Below are positions 1 to 12,513 of a stretch of 64,000 nt of DNA, one piece after another (position 1 is the first letter of the stretch; every line of letters begins with the position of its first letter). Position numbers and translations under genes: made by a program. The notes beneath the pieces were generated by a model. It was not told the origin of the DNA. It did not search any database and was given only the letters and a program-made list of their open reading frames with translations. This DNA comes from a phage. Where the stretch lies: sequence record PX418213.1; one strand, 5' to 3'.

Positions 1-122
1 GTCCAGTGGGTTGGGAGAGAATACTTAGTCTGCTAACCGCCACCCCCGTTACTATTACCATGCTAAATGTTTCACCCTGCAACCATTTTAATTGCAAGGT
101 GAAACAATTTCAACTTTAATTA

Positions 123-899
123 TTACGCGACTTTTAGTTTCTCAATATATTGTTGCGGGCTGCAACTATATTCTGCGCGTTCTTCTTCTGTCATACTTTC
201 CCAACATAGTTTTAAGCGATCGGCTAGGAACTGATAATCATTATCATCCTCGAGCGATTCATCAATAAAGGTTCCGCCTATCAATGCCACGCCGATTGAT
301 AGAATATCATTAACGGCTTGCGCGTCCAACGTTTTAAATCCGTATGATGCCGCCGCTGATAATACACCTTTATGATCATCAATCATTGTAAAATCAGCGT
401 TCGGGTATAGCTGTTTAAATAATCCAAAGTAGTAACTTTTATATACTGCGTCCTTGCTGTGGTATATTTCGCTAACCTTATCAGCTTCAAAATATTTGTG
501 CAGTGTATCGCGGGAAAATACACGGATATTACTATCCCCACGCCCGCGCAAGCCTTGCTTGCGTAGGAAGTAATAATCTGATTTGCTCATCAGGCGAGCG
601 GTACAAATAAGGTTTAAGGTATTTGCGTCATTCATGCATTGGCGCATATATTCAACTAATGGTAATAAGGTGTCTTGCATTATTAAATGATGCTTGCAAG
701 CCTCGTTTTTGTATTTATTTAAATCTAAATTCCCGTCGCTATCAAAGCAAGGCGCTACGCGATGGAATGAGTTAACGATAGTGCCATCAAGATCCCAAAT
801 CATGACGCGGGAAACATGAGGAAAGCTACGGGTAATATTCGTTTTAACTTGATTCATTTTGTTACGTTCTCCATTAAAGGGATGTAGTTTATCCAGCAT
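123..899 (-). CDS. dmp: HAD-family 5'-deoxyribonucleotidase-like phosphatase (T5 dmp-like)
   Basis: 258-aa ORF; HAD motif I (IWDLDGTIVNS) near N-terminus; sits beside A1-like gene as in T5 pre-early region. Confidence 0.6.
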   Translation of the reverse strand: MLDKLHPFNGERNKMNQVKTNITRSFPHVSRVMIWDLDGTIVNSFHRVAPCFDSDGNLDLNKYKNEACKHHLIMQDTLLPLVEYMRQCMNDANTLNLICTARLMSKSDYYFLRKQGLRGRGDSNIRVFSRDTLHKYFEADKVSEIYHSKDAVYKSYYFGLFKQLYPNADFTMIDDHKGVLSAAASYGFKTLDAQAVNDILSIGVALIGGTFIDESLEDDNDYQFLADRLKLCWESMTEEERAEYSCSPQQYIEKLKVA

Positions 900-937
900 T
901 GCCCGCTATCTATCAGCGGGCAATAATAAATCAACTA

Positions 938-1330
938 TTAAAGACCAAAGGCCAGCGCATCAGCGATAAAACTAATATCTTCTCCTGATACGTGGGAACG
1001 AATGCCCGCGCATGTAAATACCTTCGCGCTCATTAGTTGATCATCAAGACAAGCCGGACAAGGCGCGACAACTGCAAACGCTAGGCCGGATTTCACGGCG
1101 TCGATGATAATCGTTTCCTGCTTCACCGTATCAACATAAACGCCTGCGGCCTTGATGTGACTACTTGCGCGGCCTTGCGTATAGGCGAAAGTCGTGATCT
1201 GCAGCGCCTCGTTAAACTCGAGTAAATCATCAACAACGTGACCGGCCTCAACGTGATACCGCTCCCCATTAGAATAAACCAGAACGATTGAGGATTGAGC
1301 GCGATCGAATGGAATATTTTGCTTTTTCAT
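938..1330 (-). CDS. hypothetical pre-early protein
   Basis: 130-aa ORF co-directional between dmp-like and A1-like genes; no recognised motif. Confidence 0.5.
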   Translation of the reverse strand: MKKQNIPFDRAQSSIVLVYSNGERYHVEAGHVVDDLLEFNEALQITTFAYTQGRASSHIKAAGVYVDTVKQETIIIDAVKSGLAFAVVAPCPACLDDQLMSAKVFTCAGIRSHVSGEDISFIADALAFGL

Positions 1331-1397
1331 AGTTATAAAACTCCAATTAATTTAATAAGGGAAATAAGCGAGGTATATACCCCGCTTATAAATTTAA

Positions 1398-3083
1398 TTA
1401 TGCGAAAAACTTACCGTTTTTAAAGTCAATCAAAGTGCGCTGGCCGTTCGCATAGGTAATTAAATGCGTTTGCGTCCAGCTTGACGCGCCAACGTTATAG
1501 CCCATATCTAGGGAACCAGCAACGCCCGCCGTATATACGCCGCCGTAAATGCTGGCGGTGTGAGTGTGCCCCGTGTTTAACTTGCCCAATTTCTTAAACT
1601 GCTTAGGATTGCCACGGCTGCCGTTTATGCCGTTGTGACCGTGTACGCCGCATTCAATGCCTGCAATCTTGAAAGATTGATCAGTCGTTAGGAAAATCGC
1701 GTTAAACTCGCAACCTGCGACGGTACGCAGCGCATAATCTAGCACGTTGAAAGTATCATCCTGCCTTGCAATAGCTGCATAGATAGCGGCATTCAGGCGG
1801 TGATATAATTCCGCGTTTGCTGGATCGTCTTTAATGTTAGCATTGCGATCATCAAGCCAACGGGATAGCGCCAGATCGTGGTTTGATTCCACAATGATTG
1901 TTTGACTAAAATCACGTTCCATTGATTCCAGCACGCGCCCGGTATCGATGAGATCATCCAGAACCTTATCACGTCCGGCTGCATACTGTTTCGCTAGAAA
2001 TACACCAGAAGCGCGGTTATGGTGGTTGCGCGATGTAAAATCATGCACGTCATGCACAAATTGATATTTTGGCTTGAGAATATCCACTAGCCCATAAGTA
2101 TCACCGTGCCCCCATGACGCTGCGGCGCACTCCTCATCAAGTTTTTCGGCGTGTATGTCGCCATATTGCAAGCCTAAAACATGCCCCGACGTTTCAAAGC
2201 ATCCGGTGGGAGTAGCGCAAACGTTCAGATCGTAAAACATGCCGCTTTCGTCCATCGTTTCAAGCTGGCGCACAAAAAACTCACCGTCTTCGTCGAACTC
2301 AACAATCAGCGCACCGAAATTATGCAATGCTTCCGCTTTCTGTCCTGCTTTCTGCTGAATGTAGTTTTTAAGCGTTGCCGTTCCGGTGGAATACATGCGG
2401 CGCACTACTTCACCTTTGAGAGCTGGCACGCTTTCGGCGGTGATTTTAGCGTGACCAATTGCCAGACCTTCCAGATTAAGCGCGGTTGCAGTTTCTGCGA
2501 ATCCAGACAGCGGATAGTCTGCGGTGGGCAAAACATTAATTTCAGCCATGAAAGCGAAACGGCGGTTATTTAAAAACACGTTTTTACTGCAAATATATTT
2601 ATCAAACGCGGAATCATATTTGATTCCGTCTGCGCCTTCCCCATTCTGGAATCCGTTTTTATTATAAATATACTTGCTAACCAGCAAATCAGCGCCGATA
2701 AATTGGGCGTATTGCTCCAACGCGGCTAAAAAGTTTTTATGCGGGAAAGTATTATTTTGAATCGACGTTAGAATAAAGCGTTTACCTTGTTTTACTTCCC
2801 ACTGTTCCACCGTGCTAGAAATAATTCCAGCCGCTTCGGGGCGCTCGTCGTTTTTAATGGCTTTTGCTACTTTCGCCGCTTTTGGTTTCGCTGGTTTATT
2901 TGCTTCCAGCCAATCACAAATCGCGGTGGAGTGTTTTGCAGTATCGTAAACCGCTTTCGAAATATCGTCACAAACTTCCAGCTTGGTGGCGCGCAGACGT
3001 TTACCATAGAAATTAAAGTCAGCGGCCAGCTTCAGGATAACGGTTTGCTTTTCTGCGGAAATAATCATAGTAATAAGCTCCAT
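1398..3083 (-). CDS. A1: A1-like pre-early protein, calcineurin-like metallophosphoesterase
   Basis: 561-aa ORF; phosphoesterase motifs GDIHAE, SNHD, GHTHT; size and position match T5 A1. Confidence 0.6.
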   Translation of the reverse strand: MELITMIISAEKQTVILKLAADFNFYGKRLRATKLEVCDDISKAVYDTAKHSTAICDWLEANKPAKPKAAKVAKAIKNDERPEAAGIISSTVEQWEVKQGKRFILTSIQNNTFPHKNFLAALEQYAQFIGADLLVSKYIYNKNGFQNGEGADGIKYDSAFDKYICSKNVFLNNRRFAFMAEINVLPTADYPLSGFAETATALNLEGLAIGHAKITAESVPALKGEVVRRMYSTGTATLKNYIQQKAGQKAEALHNFGALIVEFDEDGEFFVRQLETMDESGMFYDLNVCATPTGCFETSGHVLGLQYGDIHAEKLDEECAAASWGHGDTYGLVDILKPKYQFVHDVHDFTSRNHHNRASGVFLAKQYAAGRDKVLDDLIDTGRVLESMERDFSQTIIVESNHDLALSRWLDDRNANIKDDPANAELYHRLNAAIYAAIARQDDTFNVLDYALRTVAGCEFNAIFLTTDQSFKIAGIECGVHGHNGINGSRGNPKQFKKLGKLNTGHTHTASIYGGVYTAGVAGSLDMGYNVGASSWTQTHLITYANGQRTLIDFKNGKFFA

Positions 3084-3164
3084 TAAAGGGATAAAAAACG
3101 TTTGTTATTGGCAAATGTTGCCAAATATAACGCCTCCAATAATAGGCGTTATAATTTGCAATAT

Positions 3165-3410
3165 TTAACTAATAGGCATCAGGCTAGAACTAACACCGCA
3201 AACAACGGCGGCAATAAAACAAATCAGGCCCAAACGCTTCGCTAACTTAGATTTGCGTTTAAAATAATACGAATCTAAATCATTTTGAAAATATGCGAAC
3301 AATAACGAGGCCGCCACAATAAATAGGCCTAAAATTAAGGATTCAGTAGGAAAGAAAATCATTTTAATAACTCCAATTAAAGGGAAATTATAGTGGGGAA
3401 TAATCCCCAC
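3165..3410 (-). CDS. small membrane protein
   Basis: 81-aa ORF with two hydrophobic segments. Confidence 0.5.
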   Translation of the reverse strand: MGIIPHYNFPLIGVIKMIFFPTESLILGLFIVAASLLFAYFQNDLDSYYFKRKSKLAKRLGLICFIAAVVCGVSSSLMPIS

Positions 3411-3419
3411 TAATTAAAT

Positions 3420-3827
3420 TTATTCACCTGCGGCTTGTTTTACCTCATCGGCAACGCCTAACAACTGCGCCACGGCGTCCAGCGTTTCCAGCTTCGCGCT
3501 TTCAAGGCTTGCCAGATCATCGGCGTCCTTGATAATGCCGGAATCGATAGCGTGTTTTGCAATTACTCGCACATAGTGAGCTTTACGGATTGAGCTGCCG
3601 CCGCCAACCTTGCGCGGCTTGTCGCTTTTTTGGTAGGCTTTCGCGCTGGTCAATTTCGAACGAACTGACACGGGAGAAGCCGCACCAACTGCTTTCGCGA
3701 TCTCTTTCAAGCCGTCGCTATTTGCGAATTCTAGCCCGTTTTCATTGATTAACTGCTGATACATGGAAACAGCCTGCTGGGTGTTTTCTTCGTTCCAGGA
3801 AAATTTTGCGGCTTTAACGTTAGTCAT
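3420..3827 (-). CDS. hypothetical protein
   Basis: 135-aa ORF, co-directional, tightly packed. Confidence 0.55.
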   Translation of the reverse strand: MTNVKAAKFSWNEENTQQAVSMYQQLINENGLEFANSDGLKEIAKAVGAASPVSVRSKLTSAKAYQKSDKPRKVGGGSSIRKAHYVRVIAKHAIDSGIIKDADDLASLESAKLETLDAVAQLLGVADEVKQAAGE

Positions 3828-3927
3828 GGTAAAAACTCCAATTAATTTAATTTAAGGGATTAAATGATTAACTAATGTTAATCGTTATATGCCCCGAACT
3901 ACTGGGGCATATAAAGTTAACACTAAT

Positions 3928-4179
3928 TTATAAAACGGCTTCCCATTTTTCGTTGCGTTGAACAACCTTTACAACGTCGCCGGATTTAACGCGAACGTTA
4001 TAAATCGGCTTGCCGTTGTTACTGCGCTCATTTTCAGCGTATACCGCGTCGATTGTATCGAACGGCATGAGCGCCGCGCCTTTAATACGTTCGGCTTTTC
4101 CGGTCAATTCATCCGTTTTAGTAACGAAAGGAATAAAAACGGATTGACCAACTTTCGGCGCATTAATAACGTTTTTCAT
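3928..4179 (-). CDS. hypothetical protein
   Basis: 83-aa ORF. Confidence 0.5.
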   Translation of the reverse strand: MKNVINAPKVGQSVFIPFVTKTDELTGKAERIKGAALMPFDTIDAVYAENERSNNGKPIYNVRVKSGDVVKVVQRNEKWEAVL

Positions 4180-4408
4180 GGTATAAACTCCAAGTTATTT
4201 GTGGATTGTTCCGCATTATCTGCTACTTTCTAGCAGACAATAAGAAAAAATCCGCTAGCCATTATAAAATCAATTTAAGGAACTCCACGCGGGCCGCTAT
4301 ATCCCAGTTAGGGGGCGGGATGCATTATGGTAAGCACCGACCGTCAGATTTTATCAAGTTATCGCTCTTATCGAACTGGGTACATCTTAAAGCCTATCGG
4401 CTAGGGTG

Positions 4409-4585
4409 TCAAATAGTTTTTTCGTTTTCTTTTAAGTTAGGATCTTCCCAACTGAATAGCATTTCGCAAAATATTTTCCCATCTTTATGATGGTAAGCTA
4501 TTTCACTTCCGTGGTTAGCACAAAAATTAATCACCGCTTCAGCTTGTTCTACCGTGATATTGTTAGCCGTTTCTTTGATTTTCAT
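4409..4585 (-). CDS. small hypothetical protein (58 aa)
   Basis: hand-translated MKIKETANNITVEQ...; AAGGA RBS 9 nt upstream; below ORF-track length cutoff. Confidence 0.3.
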   Translation of the reverse strand: MKIKETANNITVEQAEAVINFCANHGSEIAYHHKDGKIFCEMLFSWEDPNLKENEKTI

Positions 4586-5010
4586 ATCGTCGATTCCTTA
4601 TAATGTAATAAGTTTACCGCCGATAGGCTTTAAGATATACCCAATTTTTAAAGAGCGCGGCGGTAAACTTCCCGCCGTGTAGTTCGTCATTGCCGCCCTA
4701 CGAGATAAATAATAACAAACAACGAAAAAGGCGCAACCTTATATTTGTAAAGAAATGTAAAGACAAACGCCACCGGACACCGTGCGGCGACCTGGGCGCA
4801 GCGCATTAAAATTAAAAGAAACGGGCGCGCGAATAACACAAAACATAGCAGATAGGCAAGTAATTTTTTCACTTATATTTGCTTTGGGGGTATTGACAAA
4901 ATCTAAAAAGCTCGTGGCAGCGATAAACGACGTGGCCCCTTATGATTGGATGGCCAAAAACTTTATTGCGTTCTGGGGCGTTTTAGGCGCATTCTAGCCT
5001 TGTTGATAAC

Positions 5011-5076
5011 TTATCCACAGAAGCAAAAATGAAATTTTCCTAGTTATCCACTTGACTTTTATTTTCCAGTGGATAA
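5011..5076. promoter_or_regulatory. DnaA-box-like cluster with perfect inverted pair
   Basis: TTATCCACA at 5011-5019; AGTTATCCACT (5042-5052) and AGTGGATAACT (5068-5078) form an 11-bp inverted repeat. Confidence 0.5.
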
Positions 5077-5275
5077 CTACTTATTTTATGAAATAAATTA
5101 ATTGACTTTTATTTGCTAGTATGCATCGGAAAGATAGCAGACTAATAATTGCTAGGATGATGATCATGCTGGTGGATTGTAACGGCCTGAATTATTAGCA
5201 GACTGTTAATCAGGGAAAATCTCATTAGCCAACTAACTATTTCATGATATATAATATACTTATAAATTAATGAGA

Positions 5276-5360
5276 AATAATAACTATAAGAAATCATCAT
5301 CATTATAATAATAACTATAAGAAATCATCATCATTATAATAATAACTATAAGAAACTATC
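5276..5360. repeat. 31-bp tandem repeat, about 2.7 copies
   Basis: unit aataataactataagaaatcatcatcattat repeated head-to-tail. Confidence 0.7.
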
Positions 5361-5365
5361 GGCAT

Positions 5366-5497
5366 AAGTGAGAACCACTATCATTTAAGTTATCCACAAC
5401 GTTATCCACAGCACAAAATAATTTGACACGATAGGCGGCGATATGAGGGCTTTTACACAGACTTATCCACAGGTTATCCTACTGTATAAATATACAG
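5366..5497. repeat. left arm of ~130-bp imperfect inverted repeat with three TTATCCACA boxes
   Basis: reverse complement closely matches 8755-8886 at both ends (gtgagaac...ttatccaca...ctgtataaatatacag). Confidence 0.65.
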
Positions 5498-5786
5498 GGT
5501 AAAAAGGCAGTGTTAACGACTGCAATCAATTTTAGGCGGCCTAAAACGCTTTCTAACGAGCTAAACGCTGCGGGGTAATATTAAAGTAAAGACCCAACAC
5601 GTCGCCCTGATGGCTTCAGTGCGTCGCCCTGGTGGCTTCGCCGTGTTTTGCTCGTTACTACACCGCTGCGCGGTTAGCATAAAATTAGGCGTTAGGCAAG
5701 AAAAATAAAAAAGTAAAATAATCTTTGCCTATGCTAGAAAATTACCTTTATCATTCACTCACCGATTAACGAGAGGGGCCGAACAA

Positions 5787-6773
5787 ATGAGGCTATATAA
5801 ACCAGATAACGCAACCGTCTTAAAAGGTGCGCTGCGTAACCTGCTGGACGGTAGCAGAACAACCAGCATTAAGCATTTTGTTTTCAATATTGAAACTATT
5901 CATCAAAACTTTTTTGATGATTATGATGCTTATAATATGAATAGTTTTCTACCGTTATATAAGCAAGGGGCAACGCTTGTTTTATATAATCAGGATTATC
6001 AATTACTTACTAGTCGGGGGCCGGATACTGATTTCATAATAGTAAAAGGCAACACAGTAAAAGCCTATGATACTGGGGCGGGCCTAGAAGTTTTTTCAAT
6101 AGAAAACTATGAGGCCAATGATAATGATCTTTATGACGTAGAAAATTTTCTCGATTCATTTTGGCGTTATTTATCAGTTGGCTGGAATCGGTCGGATTCT
6201 GATGGGTATCGTTTTGCGGCTATAATGGCCTTTGATGATAACGGTAATTTTTTGCTACCGTCGGAGTTATATAATCGGGTATATGAAGGCGATATTGTTG
6301 ACGCCGGATTTTCTTTCGAAAGGGAAGAAAGTATTGGCAATATAGAAAAACATGTTGTAAATTCTAACACTAAAAACGTTCACACTCAAACTACTGAAAA
6401 CAAAGGAAAAAATACCATGACCAAGATTGCTAACATCGTTGCCGCTAATAAATCCGCCGTTGTAAACGCTGCAAAACTGGAAGCGGGTAAAATTGCACTA
6501 ACTCAAATCACGAAAGTAGCGGCTAAAAAAGCACCGTTCATGATCAGAGGCTATATTGATACGCCGATTGGTCGCGTAGTGATCGCTAACCTGCTGAGTG
6601 TAGCGGTTGACCAGTACGCCCCGAGTAACCAGAAAGCGAAAGCGGTAGCAAGCGCGGCAATGGAAGCGGCTATGTTAGAAATGGTGCAATCTTTTAACAT
6701 CGCTGAGATGATCGATGAAATGGTAAAAGGTATCGATATTTCTACTTTTACCAATAACACCGAAAACGAGTAA
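5787..6773 (+). CDS. hypothetical protein (328 aa)
   Basis: long plus-strand ORF with GAGAGGGG RBS; first gene of inverted-repeat-bounded block. Confidence 0.6.
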   Translation: MRLYKPDNATVLKGALRNLLDGSRTTSIKHFVFNIETIHQNFFDDYDAYNMNSFLPLYKQGATLVLYNQDYQLLTSRGPDTDFIIVKGNTVKAYDTGAGLEVFSIENYEANDNDLYDVENFLDSFWRYLSVGWNRSDSDGYRFAAIMAFDDNGNFLLPSELYNRVYEGDIVDAGFSFEREESIGNIEKHVVNSNTKNVHTQTTENKGKNTMTKIANIVAANKSAVVNAAKLEAGKIALTQITKVAAKKAPFMIRGYIDTPIGRVVIANLLSVAVDQYAPSNQKAKAVASAAMEAAMLEMVQSFNIAEMIDEMVKGIDISTFTNNTENE

Positions 6774-6890
6774 TAAATAATCTAATGTAAAGTTTTGTAA
6801 AGGTCGCCTTTTATGGTGGCCTTTTTTGTTATAATGCCTTTACACCGTTCGAGGACGGTTGAAATTTTCCCAAAATTTTGGAGGCTTAAA

Positions 6891-7121
6891 ATGGTTGCTT
6901 TTTCTTCTGCTAGTCATCTTTTCACTGGAAAAGGCTGGGTATCAAATCGCTGGATCATTCAAGAAATGGTGCAAGAGTACGGCATCGCTAAAACTTATAC
7001 TACCATACAGGCGCTTTATGATAATGATCAGATTGATCAGCAAACGGCGGGCTTTTTACTGGATACCCTGAAGGCGGAGCACTGTACCAAAAAACAAGCG
7101 GCCAAAATTATTTTAATGTAA
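6891..7121 (+). CDS. hypothetical protein
   Basis: ORF 6813..7121 with start moved to ATG 6891 behind GGAGG RBS. Confidence 0.5.
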   Translation: MVAFSSASHLFTGKGWVSNRWIIQEMVQEYGIAKTYTTIQALYDNDQIDQQTAGFLLDTLKAEHCTKKQAAKIILM

Positions 7122-7170
7122 TCAATAACGGGGGATATAATATCCCCCACTAACTAGGGGAGTATTACAA

Positions 7171-7350
7171 ATGGTTATTTTTCGAGCTTTTTTAGCGGGT
7201 ATCTTGGGCGCTATTCTTACTCTTTTTGCTACCGCTTACGGTATCCAAGATTATTGCGGCTTAGTAGTCACAAAACCTATGGTTACTATTGGCGCGGGTA
7301 TCGCTGTATTTTCTTATCTGCTGGGCTGCATGACTAGTAAAGGAGAATAA
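7171..7350 (+). CDS. small membrane protein (59 aa)
   Basis: hand-translated MVIFRAFLAGILGAILTLF...; GGGGAG RBS; hydrophobic. Confidence 0.45.
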   Translation: MVIFRAFLAGILGAILTLFATAYGIQDYCGLVVTKPMVTIGAGIAVFSYLLGCMTSKGE

Positions 7351-7352
7351 AA

Positions 7353-7565
7353 ATGATCCGCAACGTTTCTCTTGCACGTTCGAAAGGCTTTGCGCTGGTG
7401 GATGCTAACACGTTCGAGCGTCCTGATTGTAAAATTGAATATGTAGCACGTAATAAAAATGCCTTTCGTGTTACTGAAAAGAAATTCGACAAGCGCGGCA
7501 ACGTGATCCTTGAAACGGTCAGGCACTTTGCCACCTTTTACGCTGCGTTTCGTGGGGTACTATGA
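7353..7565 (+). CDS. hypothetical protein
   Basis: 70-aa ORF with AAAGGAGAA RBS. Confidence 0.55.
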   Translation: MIRNVSLARSKGFALVDANTFERPDCKIEYVARNKNAFRVTEKKFDKRGNVILETVRHFATFYAAFRGVL

Positions 7566-7693
7566 AAAGCGTTATTGTTGTTCTCCTTGCAATGGCTGGC
7601 GGTTTTATCGCCACCTTATTTAGGAATGACCCCGTTTCGCTGGGGATCTTTATGCTTTTATCTGGATACCTGATCGGGAGGTTATGCAAATGA
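7562..7693 (+). CDS. small membrane protein (43 aa)
   Basis: ATGA start/stop overlap with upstream gene; hydrophobic MKSVIVVLLAMAGGFIATLF. Confidence 0.35.
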   Translation: MKSVIVVLLAMAGGFIATLFRNDPVSLGIFMLLSGYLIGRLCK

Positions 7694-8034
7694 TCATTTA
7701 CGAGGGCAATCGTTTTGTTGCTAACTGCCGCCCGGCATTGTTAGCAAACTATTTAAACCAGCTTTCGCCAGCTTATAAGGGCGTTATTAATATTTATGAG
7801 GGCAAGGCGCATTATAAAATCAATGCGGTCGTTGCCCGTGAACTAGCGTTTCAATTTTTAACCTTCGCATCTTGCGACGTTCAGGTAATGGGTGAGGCAT
7901 TAATCGCAGAAAATGAGGATGATTTTATTAATATTTTTCGCAAGATATGCACCGAGCGCCTGATAATGAAAGGCGCGTATATTCAATCCACGGCTGATAG
8001 TATTGAAACAGCGTTTCGAAAGGTGGCGCAATGA
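7684..8034 (+). CDS. hypothetical protein
   Basis: 116-aa ORF, overlapping-coupled with neighbours. Confidence 0.55.
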   Translation: MQMIIYEGNRFVANCRPALLANYLNQLSPAYKGVINIYEGKAHYKINAVVARELAFQFLTFASCDVQVMGEALIAENEDDFINIFRKICTERLIMKGAYIQSTADSIETAFRKVAQ

Positions 8035-8246
8035 GTGAAATTACTTGGAATATGTTGCTGAAGGTTAAACGGGTAAAATTAACGCAGGATTTATGGGGAG
8101 TAGGTAAAACTGGGGATGTATTCACTGTGTTTAAAGACGCCCATCATAGGTTTATAAGAAGGAATAACAATACCGGTACAGCGTTTTATTTAATTGATTT
8201 AATCAAATTACATGGTGAGGATATTTTCAAACTAGAATATGAGTAA
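8031..8246 (+). CDS. hypothetical protein
   Basis: 71-aa ORF, ATGA overlap with upstream gene. Confidence 0.5.
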   Translation: MSEITWNMLLKVKRVKLTQDLWGVGKTGDVFTVFKDAHHRFIRRNNNTGTAFYLIDLIKLHGEDIFKLEYE

Positions 8247-8301
8247 CTATATAATTTTGGCGTATTGCAATGAGATAGCCAACTAATAACGGAGCGTTAT
8301 T

Positions 8302-8496
8302 ATGAGCAATAAAATTGTTGTAACCAAAACTACTACGATGGTAGACGTTTTTTACGTGCCCAATACGCCGGAGAATCGACAAGCGGTTGAGCGTGGGGAA
8401 TATGATAAAGTGATCTATGATCACGATGGTTATTATCAGTATTTGGTGGATTCATACGGGGAGGAGGAAAAGATCACGCATCAACTACCTGACTAA
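8302..8496 (+). CDS. hypothetical protein
   Basis: 64-aa ORF, last gene of plus-strand block. Confidence 0.5.
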   Translation: MSNKIVVTKTTTMVDVFYVPNTPENRQAVERGEYDKVIYDHDGYYQYLVDSYGEEEKITHQLPD

Positions 8497-8754
8497 TAAT
8501 CACGGGGCGCAACTATCCGGGAGTGCCCCCAATTTTCAAACGATAATCATTCTCATTTGACCGCGCTCGCGATGGTTAGCCTGCTAATGGTTCGGGTGTT
8601 ACGTGTCGCCTTGTGTGATCGTTAGCGTGCTAACTAATTTTCAAGCCTCCTCCAATTTTGCCCTTGTTTTAGTATCTCCACCAAAATAAAACGCGTTAGA
8701 ATGCGTTTGAGAGCGTTTTAGCGGTATATTAGAATTATTCACTACATAGGAATA

Positions 8755-8886
8755 CTGTATATTTATACAGTAGGATAAGCTGTGGATAAGTCTGTTAATA
8801 ACGCCTCAAAATGGCTAGGATTCTGTCAAGTCAAATCGTGCTGTTAATAAGTCTGTGGATAACTTAAATAACAGTGTTTCTCACTT
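8755..8886. repeat. right arm of ~130-bp imperfect inverted repeat with TGTGGATAA boxes
   Basis: ctgtatatttatacagtaggataagctgtggataag ... tgtggataacttaaataacagtgtttctcac mirrors 5366-5497. Confidence 0.65.
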
Positions 8887-8889
8887 CCG

Positions 8890-9125
8890 TTCTTAAATGA
8901 GAATCATTATCATTTGCATTTCACTATCTAACTAATAATCATTCCACTTTTTAAATGAGAATCGTTCCACTTCCTGAATAATTTTCGTTCCACTTTCTAA
9001 ATGATAATCGTTATCATTTGCATTCCTCTTTCTAAATGCGAATCATTCCACTTCTTAAATGAGAATCGTTTCACTTTTTAAATGAGAATTATTATCATTC
9101 TCATTCCGCTTTTTAAATGAGAATG
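8890..9125. repeat. array of about 7 TAAATGAGAAT-type motifs
   Basis: taaatgagaat and variants (taaatgataat, taaatgcgaat) at irregular 23-60 bp spacing in AT-rich DNA. Confidence 0.6.
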
Positions 9126-9148
9126 ATTCTTATTATCATTCGTATTTA

Positions 9149-9170
9149 GCGCAGGGCAATTGCCCTGCGC
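9149..9170. promoter_or_regulatory. perfect 22-bp palindrome GCGCAGGGCAATTGCCCTGCGC
   Basis: exact palindrome between the two repeat arrays. Confidence 0.6.
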
Positions 9171-9174
9171 TTTT

Positions 9175-9397
9175 GTGCAAATCCGACATTGCTCCACGGG
9201 TGTTACGTGCGGGCGTGTATGTGCGAATCCGACAATTTTTGGTAGTGTGCAAATCCGACTCGAAAAATTTTTATAGTGTGCAAATCCGACAATGAATTTT
9301 TCTAGAAACTCCAGCAATCTCGAACTGCGCATCAATCCTGTGGAGTATGTGCAAATCCGACATGGTTTTTCTAGGATTAAGATGTGCGAATCCGACA
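9175..9397. repeat. six direct copies of GTGC(A/G)AATCCGAC, each followed by a T-run
   Basis: copies at 9175, 9221, 9247, 9278, 9349, 9384. Confidence 0.7.
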
Positions 9398-9725
9398 AGA
9401 TTTTTGTGACTTCGATGAGAGGGTGTGTGATTGTGTGAGTTTGAGGAGAAGTTGAGAGAGCGAGTGAAACTTGGGGGAACTGCGAGAGGGGCGCATGTTT
9501 GGTGCAGGGCACCTGATTTGCGGGGATTTTGGGGAAGAGTTGAGAAGATTTGGGTTAATTTGAGATTAGGGGAGATAAAGTAAAATTTTATTAGCAAAAT
9601 GGGGCAAAATAGCTTGACAAGTGAAAATTTCTGTGGCTCTAAAAACTCAGGCAATCATGGGCCTTCGGCCCGAAATAATGCTGCTATTTTCAGGAGATTA
9701 TATGTTCCTAAAAACTTAGGCAATT

Positions 9726-9774
9726 GTGCAAATCCGACCATAAATTTCTAGAAACACAATGTGCGAATCCGACA
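9726..9774. repeat. two further GTGC(A/G)AATCCGAC copies
   Basis: gtgcaaatccgacc at 9726 and gtgcgaatccgaca at 9761. Confidence 0.65.
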
Positions 9775-10284
9775 GTAATTTCTGGAAATGTGTTTTCAAA
9801 AAATGTCCCCTAGAAATAACCGCCCTCCTCATAACCGCCCTGTATTAAACCGCCTAGTATATGTTCCTAGAAACTTAGGAGAACCGCCCACTAGAAGTGT
9901 AGTATCTCGTGAGTATTTCGTGAGAACTCTGGAGTTTCTAGGAAAGTGTTGTGCCACCCTAGCAGATGAGCGGCAACAGGTGTATCATCTTGAATGTAAA
10001 TTATGTGGTCAAAAGTTTTACTTTTATTTTAAATATAAGATCCCCCAGGGTTCTCATATAGAGCTTTGCCCCCGCCAGAAGGTCTCGTGGTGTTTCTAGC
10101 AATTTATATTAAATTACTTATTAACTTGTCCTGTCGCTCCGTATCCTCCGCTACAAGTTAGTAATTTTAAATTACTGAACCACCACACCTTCTGTGTGGC
10201 AACTCTAAATGGTTAATTCTATTAACTCATAGAGTTATGATAACATACATTTAGCTATCTGTCAACGAGAGTTTGTATTTGAGT

Positions 10285-10309
10285 CTCGGTACAGATATTG
10301 TGCACCGAG
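10285..10309. other. stem-loop at boundary of repeat region and early genes
   Basis: CTCGGT (10285-10290) pairs with ACCGAG (10304-10309), 13-nt loop. Confidence 0.4.
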
Positions 10310-10321
10310 ACATGCAGGATC

Positions 10322-11206
10322 TTACAGTAACTCTTGGTATGCTTTTTGATACGCCTCAGTGTCAGTAGGTGTATCTTTTGCTAGTGCAATTAGTTCATCT
10401 GTTATCTGAATATTCGTATTATAACGTGAGTGGAACTCGTTAGGAATTTCTAGGTATCTATTGATGAATGCTGCAGCAAGCGGTGTGACTAAACCAATCT
10501 CTAGAGATAGCTTAACTTGTTTTTCGTAGATTAAATATTGAGAATCAGATGGGGTTGGTGGGGTTACATCAGTTTTCTCCGGTTCTTTTTCTGGAAGCAA
10601 GGGATTATTATATAATGCTTCATCTGGAAGCACAGATTTACGCTCTTTAAATATATAAGTTTCTAGATCCGATGCTTTAGATCCTGAGTATACCGCAAAG
10701 ACGCTAGCTTTACCCTGGGATGCCCTAACTGGTAAATAACTAGTAGGATAGCTTCTTAATGCATCATGGAATGGACTTCCTGAGTACTTGTACGTATCCC
10801 CATAGAGATCATCAATATTCATTCGTTCATCTTCAAAAATGTGAAAAGAGCTAAATGATGGGATAGTAAAGTATTCCATCTGTAATCCATAAACTAAGAA
10901 ACGATGTGCATATGCGCTAATCTTTAAGACTGTGAATGCTTTTTCACCTTCTTTATGGGCGTTGCCTTTTGAAGTAACTTGATAACGTTTACAAAACATC
11001 TCTACTAGACGTTTCTCATTAATACTAAGGGTGGAGTATAGTCGTCCACTTAATCCTATAAGTGCATCGAACATAAATGCTAGTTTATCTTTTTCTTCCT
11101 GAGATAGTTCTGGAAACGGTAATACTTTCGCATTAGGAACATTATTGTTCTCTTTAGGTTTTGTTTTACCAGCATTTTGTCTTAGTTTATCTTTAAAGTT
11201 ATACAT
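10322..11206 (-). CDS. hypothetical protein
   Basis: 294-aa ORF. Confidence 0.6.
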   Translation of the reverse strand: MYNFKDKLRQNAGKTKPKENNNVPNAKVLPFPELSQEEKDKLAFMFDALIGLSGRLYSTLSINEKRLVEMFCKRYQVTSKGNAHKEGEKAFTVLKISAYAHRFLVYGLQMEYFTIPSFSSFHIFEDERMNIDDLYGDTYKYSGSPFHDALRSYPTSYLPVRASQGKASVFAVYSGSKASDLETYIFKERKSVLPDEALYNNPLLPEKEPEKTDVTPPTPSDSQYLIYEKQVKLSLEIGLVTPLAAAFINRYLEIPNEFHSRYNTNIQITDELIALAKDTPTDTEAYQKAYQELL

Positions 11207-11285: not shown

Positions 11286-11888
11286 TTAATCCTTTTTACT
11301 CTCATTAATAGCAGCTCCCAACGCCTCCATAATAGCATCTTCTAAACTTCCATGTTGACTAGGATTATTAAAATGAATAGTACAAACAGAACTCCTAGAA
11401 ACTCCAGCATCCGCAGGTGCTACGCTTCGCATATCAGATTCAAAAGCTTCTTGAGTATGTTTCAACTGTACAGAAGGGCCGTAATCTTCCCCAAATTTAT
11501 ATGACTGCGTACTACTTACCACACCCCCACAAGGAACATTGTGCATATCCGATGATTTATTCAGCATTGCGATTGTCCCCGACTGCCACGGATCCCGAAT
11601 AGTTACTGGAGTACTAGGGCGGTTCACCTCAGCCTTCACAAGTTTGTACCCTGCATCGATTAATGCGTTAATTAGATTATCAGCTGGGATGCGAGCCTTA
11701 CCAAAAATCTTGCGAGCGTCTTCGAGCTTATCCTCAAGACCTTTACATGCTCTAAGGTCAGTGTGTGCAAAGGTTAGCTTCATAGATTTGAATTGTACAG
11801 TAGCAGTTAAATCTTTAAAGCTATAATCCCATGTATTCAGTTCATGATCTGGTACTACTTGAATAGATTGTTGCGCATTAAAAGTCAT
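11286..11888 (-). CDS. hypothetical protein
   Basis: 200-aa ORF. Confidence 0.6.
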   Translation of the reverse strand: MTFNAQQSIQVVPDHELNTWDYSFKDLTATVQFKSMKLTFAHTDLRACKGLEDKLEDARKIFGKARIPADNLINALIDAGYKLVKAEVNRPSTPVTIRDPWQSGTIAMLNKSSDMHNVPCGGVVSSTQSYKFGEDYGPSVQLKHTQEAFESDMRSVAPADAGVSRSSVCTIHFNNPSQHGSLEDAIMEALGAAINESKKD

Positions 11889-12073: not shown

Positions 12074-12513
12074 TATTTGATCTCCATTCTTAACTTTGAA
12101 AACTTATTATACCAAACTATATGATTATCGTCAATTACAAATTTATGATAACATGCTGGTACGGTATAAGTTCCATAATCCGTGACACGCTGCACAACCT
12201 TGTGTGCACACAGTCGACAACCATGCCCTTCTAAATGAGATCTAGCAGTTTGCCAATAATACCCTTCATGATCTGGACAATAGATCTCGACTTGCTGTTG
12301 CATTGTTTTGTAATTTACTCGCTCATACCCAAAGAAAGCTCCATGAACTGCAACAGCTTTCTTGATAAATATAAGGTTTAGTGCTTCTTGTTGAAAGTCG
12401 GGATGTAGCTGTTTAATCTTAGTTCTATTAATAGATCCATCCGATTTGATAAACCTGTTTATTGGAAAGTTGTTAGCTTCCTCGATTAGTAATTCATTTA
12501 CTTTTTCTCTCAT
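12073..12513 (-). CDS. hypothetical protein with Cys/His cluster
   Basis: ORF 12073..12615 trimmed to internal Met to avoid overlap; motif CPDHEGYYWQTARSHLEGHGCRLCAH. Confidence 0.45.
   Translation of the reverse strand: MREKVNELLIEEANNFPINRFIKSDGSINRTKIKQLHPDFQQEALNLIFIKKAVAVHGAFFGYERVNYKTMQQQVEIYCPDHEGYYWQTARSHLEGHGCRLCAHKVVQRVTDYGTYTVPACYHKFVIDDNHIVWYNKFSKLRMEIK

What the first reader, a model, noticed from the sequence alone, without database searches (positions are those of the whole stretch)
9175..9774. Eight copies of GTGC(A/G)AATCCGAC, each followed by a T-run, in a gene-poor region
A 14-bp motif recurs at 9175, 9221, 9247, 9278, 9349, 9384, 9726 and 9761, all in one orientation. This is typical of iterated protein-binding sites. 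Together with the neighbouring repeats, the region resembles the repeat-rich injection-stop/terminal-repeat boundary described for T5-like phages, but the binding factor is unknown.
Basis: partly seen in the sequence, partly recalled or inferred. Interest (0 to 1): 0.6.

Follow-up and report, generated by a model that had tools for sequence, protein, structure and literature searches.

The report
Known T5 "DRD" repeats at terminal-repeat end
The eight repeats are real, but they are the already-described "DRD" direct repeats of the injection-stop region of T5-like phages; they flank the exact end of the phage's long terminal repeat, and the protein that binds them is still unknown.

Summary
There are eight exact copies of (T)GTGC(A/G)AATCCGAC at the stated coordinates, all on the + strand, and no other copy with 0-1 mismatch in the 64 kb. 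Seven of the eight, not all, are followed by a T-run.

The window is the left end of a T5-like phage (Demerecviridae), so window coordinates are about the same as genome coordinates. T5 has nine copies at the homologous place. These match the "nine DRD direct repeats" of "Repeat Region 3", the annotated injection-stop (iss) region.

What I add:
- The same 13-mer persists in Klebsiella and Serratia phages and in metagenomic T5-like contigs whose spacers cannot be aligned.
- A variant, GGTGCAAAT(TCTA/TGAT), occupies the same place in Vibrio phage Ceto.
- In every lineage with an array, it sits just inside the right end of the terminal repeat. In most lineages further copies lie just outside that end. 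The end is conserved (TTGACA-N12-TGTGGCTC|, window 9639), and nine independent genome ends stop there.
- T-runs are dispensable, because some lineages have T-run-free arrays with a 15-bp period.

Best guess (about 0.35) is an oriented pac/cosB-like array that positions the terminase for the right-end cut. The main rival (about 0.25) is that the copies are targets of the essential DNA-binding pre-early protein A2. Neither is proven.

The parts
9175..9187 (+). DRD copy 1 (GTGCAAATCCGAC). It has no T-run and starts 4 nt after the position homologous to the T5 7.9% nick.
   Evidence: nick position from the T5 annotation and the alignment
9221..9233 (+). DRD copy 2 (GTGCGAATCCGAC), followed by TTTTT
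9247..9259 (+). DRD copy 3, followed by AAAAATTTTT
9278..9290 (+). DRD copy 4, followed by TTTTT and then CTAGAAAC
9349..9361 (+). DRD copy 5, followed by TTTTT
9384..9396 (+). DRD copy 6, followed by TTTTT. It is the last copy inside the terminal repeat, and the repeat end lies 256 nt after its start.
9726..9738 (+). DRD copy 7, which starts 87 nt beyond the predicted terminal-repeat end (unique DNA)
9761..9773 (+). DRD copy 8, outside the terminal repeat
9148..9174 (+). Perfect 12+12 palindrome AGCGCAGGGCAA/TTGCCCTGCGCT followed by TTT (terminator-like). The T5 'major single-chain interruption' (record 9748/9749, minus strand) maps to window 9170/9171.
   Evidence: I15
9400..9600 (+). G/T-rich, C-poor tract between DRD6 and the repeat end (GC skew +0.44 to +0.69). 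The composition, not the sequence, is conserved in distant lineages.
9614..9639 (+). Terminus block TTGACA-N12-TGTGGCTC. The predicted right end of the terminal repeat, and so the physical right end of the genome in the right-hand copy, falls after 9639.
9818..9890 (+). Three AACCGCCCT-type repeats (9818, 9833, 9882), conserved in order after the outer DRDs in several genera
8781..8862 (-). DnaA boxes (TTATCCACA at 8781 and 8854, each paired with a variant box). This corresponds to the published IRD'spacerIRC' element, which lies to the left of the DRDs.
8893..9140 (.). AAATGAGAATCATTATCATT-type repeats resembling Fur boxes, lying between the DnaA boxes and the DRDs
11541..11553 (+). Degenerate copy (GTGCATATCCGAT, 2 mismatches) inside the T5.019-like gene. 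The homologous site is an exact or 1-mismatch copy in T5 and many relatives.
3420..3827 (-). Gene A2, encoding an essential pre-early DNA-binding protein with no known target. It is a candidate binder only.

Best explanation
The eight copies are the 'DRD' direct repeats of the T5-type 'Repeat Region 3' (iss / terminal-repeat boundary). I am about 0.9 confident of this identification.

I read them as an oriented array of binding sites for one sequence-specific protein, placed on both sides of the right boundary of the long terminal repeat. My preferred mechanism is inferred, not shown. I propose that the array works like a pac/cosB-type recognition region. A packaging protein, most likely the small terminase, would load on the copies inside and outside the boundary. 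It would thereby position the nuclease on the conserved TTGACA-N12-TGTGGCTC| site to make the right genome end.

The left end is injected first, so the right end is presumably the first DNA packaged. That would put DRD1-6 at the first-packaged end, as cosB is in lambda. The common orientation of the copies would give the reaction its polarity. The T/A-runs beside many copies would be accessory bending or spacer elements.
For: 1. The copies are real and confined to this locus. The paired motif occurs in IMG/VR only in T5-sized or T5-like contigs. It forms no array in any Enterobacterales genome.

2. The motif itself is selected. In Klebsiella phage Sealy, Serratia phage Kamaji and metagenomic T5-like contigs the spacers cannot be aligned, yet 6-12 same-orientation copies of GTGC(A/G)AA(T/A)CCGA(C/T) remain at the same place.

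3. The array is tied to the terminus. T5 and phiR2-01 annotate their repeat ends at the same homologous base. The contig ends of records that carry both repeats (L045, L059, L051, L042, L064, L030 and T5) stop exactly at ...TGTGGC(T/C)C, 256-258 nt after the start of DRD6. That gives six copies 244-465 nt inside the end and two to three copies 87-260 nt outside it.

4. Vibrio phage Ceto belongs to a different subfamily. Its 8,301-bp repeat ends at TTGACAATTACGGGGGTCGC|, and variant units (GGTGCAAAT...) lie on both sides of that end in the same orientation.

5. No comparable array is seen in the sequence at the left boundary of the repeat. That fits a single assembly site per genome unit.

6. 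A gene annotated as the small terminase is conserved family-wide.

7. The DRDs are not promoters, intrinsic terminators, tRNAs or any known RNA family.
Against: - There is no experimental link between terminase and these sites, and I found no literature on how T5 termini are recognised.
- The mature genome keeps an intact, uncut copy of the whole site at the junction of the left repeat and unique DNA. Cutting would therefore have to be context- or direction-dependent.
- The DRD6-to-cut distance (about 245 bp) is long.
- From general knowledge, small-terminase specificity usually drifts quickly. Here the 13-mer is invariant across several enterobacterial phage genera.
- Proteus phage PM135 keeps the terminus block but has only degenerate copies.
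- Some records place the repeat end elsewhere: 47-50 nt after DRD6 in saus132 and L061, 20 nt further on in L055, 10139 in Wang 2005, and 9749 in the st0 record.
- Two lineages (L062/L027) show copies on only one side.
- The position is equally compatible with a role in restarting DNA transfer.
Confidence: 0.35

Rival explanations
1. The DRDs are the binding sites of the pre-early protein A2, alone or with A1. After first-step transfer stops, newly made A2 would bind successive copies as they enter. It would act as a ratchet or handle that restarts and directs second-step transfer.
For: A2 is essential, binds DNA, is required for second-step transfer, and has no known target. It is encoded in the window (3420-3827). 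It matches a 'DNA binding protein' PHROG. It is conserved across the family, including Vibrio and Proteus phages. Its model (pLDDT 84) has an N-terminal three-helix bundle plus a conserved basic linker, KPRKVGGGSS. DRD1 starts 4 nt after the 7.9% nick that marks the end of first-step DNA. In Ceto both the motif and the A2 helix-3/linker differ from the enterobacterial forms.
Against: Injection has no reason to respect the terminal-repeat boundary, yet the copies flank it in both subfamilies. If transfer stops at about 7.9%, the DRDs are not yet in the cytoplasm where A2 is. Proteus PM135 keeps the A2 helix and the PRKVG(A)GSS linker but lacks a canonical array. The fold search gave no significant match (best E = 0.9), so even the HTH assignment is tentative. 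A2 and the small terminase have the same phylogenetic distribution, so that profile does not discriminate.
Confidence: 0.25
2. The DRDs bind a host protein that helps create the injection stop as part of a nucleoprotein roadblock, together with the neighbouring DnaA boxes and Fur-like boxes.
For: First-step transfer stops without phage protein synthesis (established knowledge). Any protein-mediated stop must therefore use host or virion proteins. The DRDs sit next to DnaA boxes and Fur-box-like repeats. The motif is invariant in phages of Escherichia, Salmonella, Klebsiella, Serratia and Yersinia but altered in a Vibrio phage. That is the pattern expected for a host-lineage factor.
Against: I know of no E. 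coli factor with this recognition sequence, though this rests on memory and was not tested. There are no arrays of the motif in Enterobacterales genomes. The copies lie to the right of the estimated shear point (9618 in T5). Two to three copies lie beyond the repeat end.
Confidence: 0.15
3. The DRDs are iterons of a replication origin, in the classic layout of DnaA boxes, an AT-rich stretch and direct repeats.
For: The region contains DnaA boxes, AT-rich repeats and an array of direct repeats in one orientation.
Against: The spacing is irregular (46, 26, 31, 71, 35, 342, 35 nt). The unit is 13 bp. The adjacent ORFs show no replication-initiator signature. T5 origins were mapped near the genome centre, and the replication genes are not expressed in the first step.
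Confidence: 0.05

Closest known systems
T5 'DRD' direct repeats in Repeat Region 3 / injection-stop (iss) region (Heusterspreute 1987; Wang 2005; Davison 2015 and bioRxiv 10.1101/866236)
   Same: The locus is homologous, the 13-mer is the same, the orientation is the same, and the spacing is nearly identical. T5 has nine copies and the window eight. The literature lists 'nine DRD repeats' at this place.
   Different: The window lacks the ninth, most distal copy, which in T5 is the 1-mismatch copy at record 10478. The equation DRD = this motif therefore rests on position and copy number.
Phage P1 pac site and lambda cosB (R1-R3) / SPP1 pacL-pacR (from general knowledge)
   Same: In these sites short iterated motifs lie next to, or on both sides of, the terminase cut site. 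They are bound by the small terminase, and adjacent A/T tracts or IHF bends assist.
   Different: The motif sequences are unrelated. Distances to the cut are longer here (87-465 bp). T5 makes long exact terminal repeats rather than cohesive ends or headful ends. Terminase binding is untested.
T7/T3 short repeat arrays flanking the terminal repetition (SRL/SRR; from memory)
   Same: Arrays of short direct repeats lie beside the terminal repeat of a phage with exact direct terminal repeats, and their function is likewise unsettled.
   Different: The phage family and the motif are different. The T7 repeat is 160 bp, against about 9.6 kb here.
Plasmid/phage iterons
   Same: Both are same-orientation direct repeats lying next to DnaA boxes.
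   Different: The spacing is irregular, no adjacent initiator gene is present, and the origins are mapped elsewhere.

Membership tests
T5 DRD repeats (Repeat Region 3) | Located in the non-coding region between the pre-early (+) and early (-) genes at the right end of the left terminal repeat of a T5-like phage | tested here: met
   The window starts at about T5 base 5. The region is 87-96% identical to T5-like phages. The flanking genes are homologous.
T5 DRD repeats (Repeat Region 3) | Same repeated sequence, orientation and copy number as in T5 (nine copies) | tested here: met
   T5 has 8 exact copies plus one 1-mismatch copy at record 9753-10478. The window has 8 copies in register with them. 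The literature states 'nine DRD repeats', but the DRD sequence itself could not be read because the figure is not held.
T5 DRD repeats (Repeat Region 3) | Lies to the right of the IRD'spacerIRC' DnaA-box element and the DRE repeats | tested here: met
   The order DnaA boxes > AATGAGAATCATT repeats > DRD is found in the window, T5, Sealy, Kamaji, L037, L054 and L062.
Functional injection-stop signal (iss) | Cis-acting site at which DNA transfer halts at about 8% of the genome | not testable with these tools
   Only position is available. DRD1-6 fall inside the T5 'iss' misc_feature (9140-10149) and DRD7-9 fall outside it. The estimated shear point, 9618, lies to the left of DRD1.
Terminase recognition site (pac/cos type) | Lies immediately beside the site where genome ends are cut | tested here: met
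   Nine records end at TGTGGC(T/C)C|, 256-258 nt after DRD6. Ceto has the same layout.
Terminase recognition site (pac/cos type) | Bound by the small terminase and required for packaging initiation | not testable with these tools
   A small-terminase gene exists family-wide. No binding or genetic data were found.
Iterons of a replication origin | Regularly spaced repeats of about 17-22 bp next to an initiator gene | tested here: not met
   The unit is 13 bp and the spacing is 26-71 nt plus a 342-nt gap. No initiator signature appears in the neighbouring ORFs. Origins are mapped mid-genome.
Intrinsic terminators (motif plus T-run) | G+C-rich hairpin immediately before the T-run | tested here: not met
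   The scan found no terminator-like site within 9175-9800 on either strand. No hairpin precedes the T-runs. The separate palindrome at 9148-9171 followed by TTT was also not called by this scan, whose tail criterion (5 T in 8) it does not meet; I read it as terminator-like (I15).
Sigma-70 promoters | -35/-10 hexamers with 16-18 nt spacing | tested here: not met
   No promoter-like site was found within 9175-9800. The TTGACA at 9614 has no acceptable -10 at 16-18 nt (read).
tRNA or other known RNA family | Match to a tRNA model or an Rfam covariance model at the curated threshold | tested here: not met
   ARAGORN found no gene. All Rfam hits are far below the gathering scores and none covers a DRD array.

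The most novel reading that the evidence does not exclude
The DRD array, together with the conserved TTGACA-N12-TGTGGCTC block, is the cis-acting element that defines the right boundary of the long terminal repeat in all Demerecviridae. It would be the assembly site for the packaging machinery. Because a full copy also sits in the left repeat, the same nucleoprotein site could also underlie the injection stop and restart. Alternatively, it is the long-sought DNA target of the essential protein A2.
Probability: 0.35. Interest if true: 0.6.

Novelty: already known. Interest (0 to 1): 0.3.

Why it matters
Two T5 questions are decades old: how DNA transfer stops at 8% and restarts, and how exact 10-kb terminal repeats are cut. 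Neither has a defined cis-element or binding protein.

The DRD repeats are the most sharply defined conserved motif in the region. They flank the exact repeat end in two subfamilies and co-vary with lineage. Taken together, these features make them a concrete, mutable target for the T5 genome-engineering methods now available.

As a scan finding, however, it rediscovers a published repeat family.

Tried and rejected
- **Core versus spacer conservation among close relatives.** In 25 close relatives the cores are 92% identical to the window and the non-core positions 86%. In a permutation test 406 of 5000 random placements did as well. This does not discriminate, because the whole non-coding region is conserved. 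The useful signal came only from distant genera.
- **Promoter and terminator reading of 'motif + T-run'.** No such sites are present.
- **tRNA-like or RNA-gene reading**, prompted by the resemblance to the T-arm sequence GTTCGAATCC. The tRNA and Rfam scans were both negative.
- **Host-chromosome arrays.** The bacterial-genome scan found only two mis-binned T5-like fragments and unrelated tandem repeats.
- **A2 fold assignment.** The model is confident, but Foldseek against the PDB gave nothing significant (best E = 0.9). Only weak similarities to the HTH domains of TnpE, Mos1, Myb and LexA appeared. Pfam found no domain.
- **Phylogenetic profiling of A2 versus the small terminase.** Both occur in the same roughly 900 records, with about 40-47% identity between Vibrio and enterobacterial phages. 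This does not discriminate.
- **Published FST deletions.** They end at gene 017 and leave the DRD region intact, so they give no essentiality data.
- **Davison 2015 review.** It could not be retrieved.
- **Helical phasing of the T-runs.** Successive T-runs are 33, 26, 70 and 35 nt apart, which is not in phase. This was my own hand count from the sequence, not a tool result.

Full report
**1. The observation**

Reading window 8400-10800 and a pattern search confirm eight exact copies of GTGC(A/G)AATCCGAC. They lie at 9175, 9221, 9247, 9278, 9349, 9384, 9726 and 9761, all on the + strand. At up to 2 mismatches the window has 14 hits, against 1.33 expected, and none of 100 shuffles reached 14. 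No further copy with 0 or 1 mismatch exists in the 64 kb.

Three of the 2-mismatch hits elsewhere (32841, 34727, 40110, minus strand) read GTTCGAATCC. That is the tRNA T-arm consensus, which I recognise from general knowledge; no tRNA scan was run on that part of the window.

All eight copies are preceded by T. Seven of the eight are followed within 3-9 nt by a T-run, T5 in five copies and T3 in two. Copy 1 has none.

The region 8560-10320 lies between convergent gene blocks. The homologous T5 stretch has no annotated CDS.

**2. What the locus is**

The region matches hundreds of T5-like phages (Demerecviridae) at 80-96% identity. The closest is Escherichia phage HK6. The first bases of the window align with base 5 of the T5 left end, so window coordinates are essentially genome coordinates.

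The T5 reference record annotates three features at the homologous place:
- the left terminal repeat (1..10219);
- an 'injection stop signal (iss)' (9140..10149);
- a major single-strand interruption at 9748/9749.

T5 carries eight exact copies and one 1-mismatch copy of the motif at record positions 9753-10478. They are in register with the window's copies.

Davison's preprint (10.1101/866236) follows Heusterspreute 1987 and Wang 2005. It describes 'Repeat Region 3' (9194-10409) as containing 'nine copies of direct repeat DRD'. [quoted passage not shown] I therefore identify the finding as the published DRD repeats.

A 2026 preprint still lists no DNA target for the essential DNA-binding protein A2, and its large deletions stop short of this region.

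**3. Evidence that the motif itself is selected**

Among 25 close relatives the whole non-coding region is conserved: cores 92%, the rest 86%. A permutation test was not significant (406 of 5000). The informative comparison is with distant genera.

- In the Sugarland-like Klebsiella phages BLAST aligns only the window ~9569-9698 part of the query.
- Even so, Klebsiella phage Sealy has 9-12 same-orientation copies and Serratia phage Kamaji has 6-7.
- Metagenomic T5-like contigs (L027/L062) carry a head-to-tail array with a 15-bp period and no T-runs. Others (L037, L054) have 17/27-nt spacings.
- Over 245 distinct copies the flanks show T at -1 (88%), A at +14 (68%) and T enrichment at +19 to +21 (64-76%). 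The T-run is therefore frequent but dispensable.
- The paired motif occurs in IMG/VR only in T5-like contigs.
- In bacterial genomes it occurs only in two mis-binned T5-like fragments and in unrelated tandem repeats.

**4. Relation to the genome terminus**

T5 (10219) and Yersinia phage phiR2-01 (9901) annotate their repeat ends at the same homologous base...TTGACAAGTGAAAATTTCTGTGGCTC|. Contigs that include both repeats end at that same base: L045, L059, L051, L042, L064, L030 and T5. This is 256-258 nt after the start of DRD6.

A distant lineage (L021) ends about 22 nt after its own TTGACA. The exceptions are saus132 and L061 (47-50 nt after DRD6), L055 (+20 nt), Wang's 10139 and the st0 record's 9749.

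In the window the block is 9614-9639. DRD1-6 therefore lie 244-465 nt inside the repeat end, and DRD7-8 begin 87 and 122 nt outside it.

The same order of elements recurs in all lineages examined:
- DnaA boxes;
- Fur-like or other repeats;
- the palindrome and nick site;
- the inner DRD array;
- a G/T-rich tract;
- the TTGACA terminus block;
- the outer DRDs;
- the AACCGCCCT repeats;
- the early genes.

Vibrio phage Ceto (subfamily Ermolyevavirinae) has an 8,301-bp repeat ending at TTGACAATTACGGGGGTCGC|. An array of (TA)GGTGCAAA(T/A)T..A(T/C) with a 15-bp period lies 110-310 nt inside that end. Three to four more units lie 55-215 nt outside it, in the same orientation.

Proteus phage PM135 keeps the terminus block but has only degenerate copies.

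**5. Mechanism**

The DRDs are not promoters, terminators, tRNAs or known RNAs. The best-supported general statement is that they form an oriented array of sites for a sequence-specific protein, tied to the terminal-repeat boundary.

The only processes for which that boundary has meaning are cutting the genome ends and duplicating or recombining the repeat. The left end is injected first, so the right end is presumably packaged first. That would place DRD1-6 in the first-packaged few hundred base pairs, as cosB is in lambda. Motifs on both sides of the cut recall P1 pac and SPP1 pacL/pacR. These comparisons come from general knowledge.

I therefore favour a terminase-recognition role (about 0.35). 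The steps that are shown are the position, conservation, orientation and lineage-specific variation of the array. The steps that are inferred are who binds it and what binding does.

The main rival (about 0.25) is A2 binding for restart of the second step. A2 is essential, binds DNA and has no known target. Its model shows a three-helix N-terminal domain and a conserved basic linker. It changes in Ceto along with the motif.

Several points count against A2:
- Injection has no reason to respect the repeat boundary.
- PM135 keeps A2's conserved segments without a canonical array.
- The fold search was not significant.
- A2 and the small terminase share the same phylogenetic distribution, so that profile cannot separate them.

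A host-factor roadblock (about 0.15) and origin iterons (about 0.05) are less likely, for the reasons given under the rival explanations.

**6. Novelty and verdict**

The additions made here are incremental. They are family-wide persistence of the motif, a lineage-specific variant in Vibrio phages, dispensability of the T-run, and the way the array flanks a precisely conserved terminus. They do sharpen the hypotheses into testable ones.

Interest 0.3. Novelty: already known.

Noticed in passing
window 8893-9140 (also 227-251): The AAATGAGAATCATTATCATT-type repeats left of the DRDs closely resemble the Fur-box consensus GATAATGATAATCATTATC. At up to 3 mismatches there are 4 hits in the window against 0.03 expected (227, 233, 9084, 9119), and many more at up to 5 mismatches. 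Similar boxes occur at the same place in T5, Sealy, L037 and L054. A full-text search found only one paper holding both 'T5-like' and 'Fur box', and I did not open it. T5 uses the Fur-regulated receptor FhuA.
   Followed up: partly
window 9614-9639: The block TTGACA-N12-TGTGGCTC is the most conserved part of the region. It is the only part that BLAST finds in Sugarland-like Klebsiella phages. Related forms (TTGACA followed by a G-rich 14-22 nt) mark the genome end in Vibrio phage Ceto and occur in Proteus PM135. It looks like a -35 element but has no usable -10. It is probably the terminus cut site.
   Followed up: yes
window 9400-9600: A tract of about 200 bp that is strongly G/T-rich and C-poor (GC skew up to +0.69) lies on the strand whose 3' end is the right genome end. 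The composition, not the sequence, is conserved in all lineages, including the Vibrio phage. This is reminiscent of telomeric G-strands or of RecA-preferred GT-rich DNA.
   Followed up: partly
window 9818-9890 and 38-44: AACCGCCCT is repeated three times just beyond the outer DRDs. This is conserved in T5, Sealy, Kamaji, L037 and L054. An AACCGCC also sits about 35 nt inside the left genome end.
   Followed up: partly
window 9148-9174: A perfect 24-nt palindrome followed by TTT looks like an intrinsic terminator closing the pre-early block, although the terminator scan did not call it. Its GCGC end coincides with the position of the T5 7.9% nick (window 9170/9171, minus strand), 4 nt before DRD1.
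   Followed up: partly
window 11541-11553; T5 record 12142-12154: An extra DRD copy lies inside the T5.019-like early gene. It is exact or has 1 mismatch in T5 and most relatives, but has 2 mismatches in this window. It is unclear whether it is functional or coincidental.
   Followed up: no
L001/L002/L016/L061/L055 (database records): Public records disagree on the right end of the T5-type terminal repeat. The values are 9749 (st0 record), 10139 (Wang 2005), 10219 (NC_005859), 47-50 nt after DRD6 (saus132, L061) and 20 nt past TGTGGCTC (L055). Most independent records agree on TGTGGCTC|.
   Followed up: partly
L152, L159 (bacterial MAG contigs): Two short contigs binned as Spirochaetia and Clostridia MAGs (INTA.CYC isolates) are fragments of T5-like phage iss regions, so they are binning contaminants.
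   Followed up: partly
L151 (Proteus phage PM135), reverse strand around record 90600-93600: PM135 keeps the DnaA boxes, the palindrome and the TTGACA terminus block, but has only degenerate DRDs (GTGCGTAATCGAC, GGAAATCCGAA). It also has two reversed TGCAAATC units inside its G/T-rich tract. This is a natural 'array-poor' variant that would be useful for comparison.
   Followed up: partly
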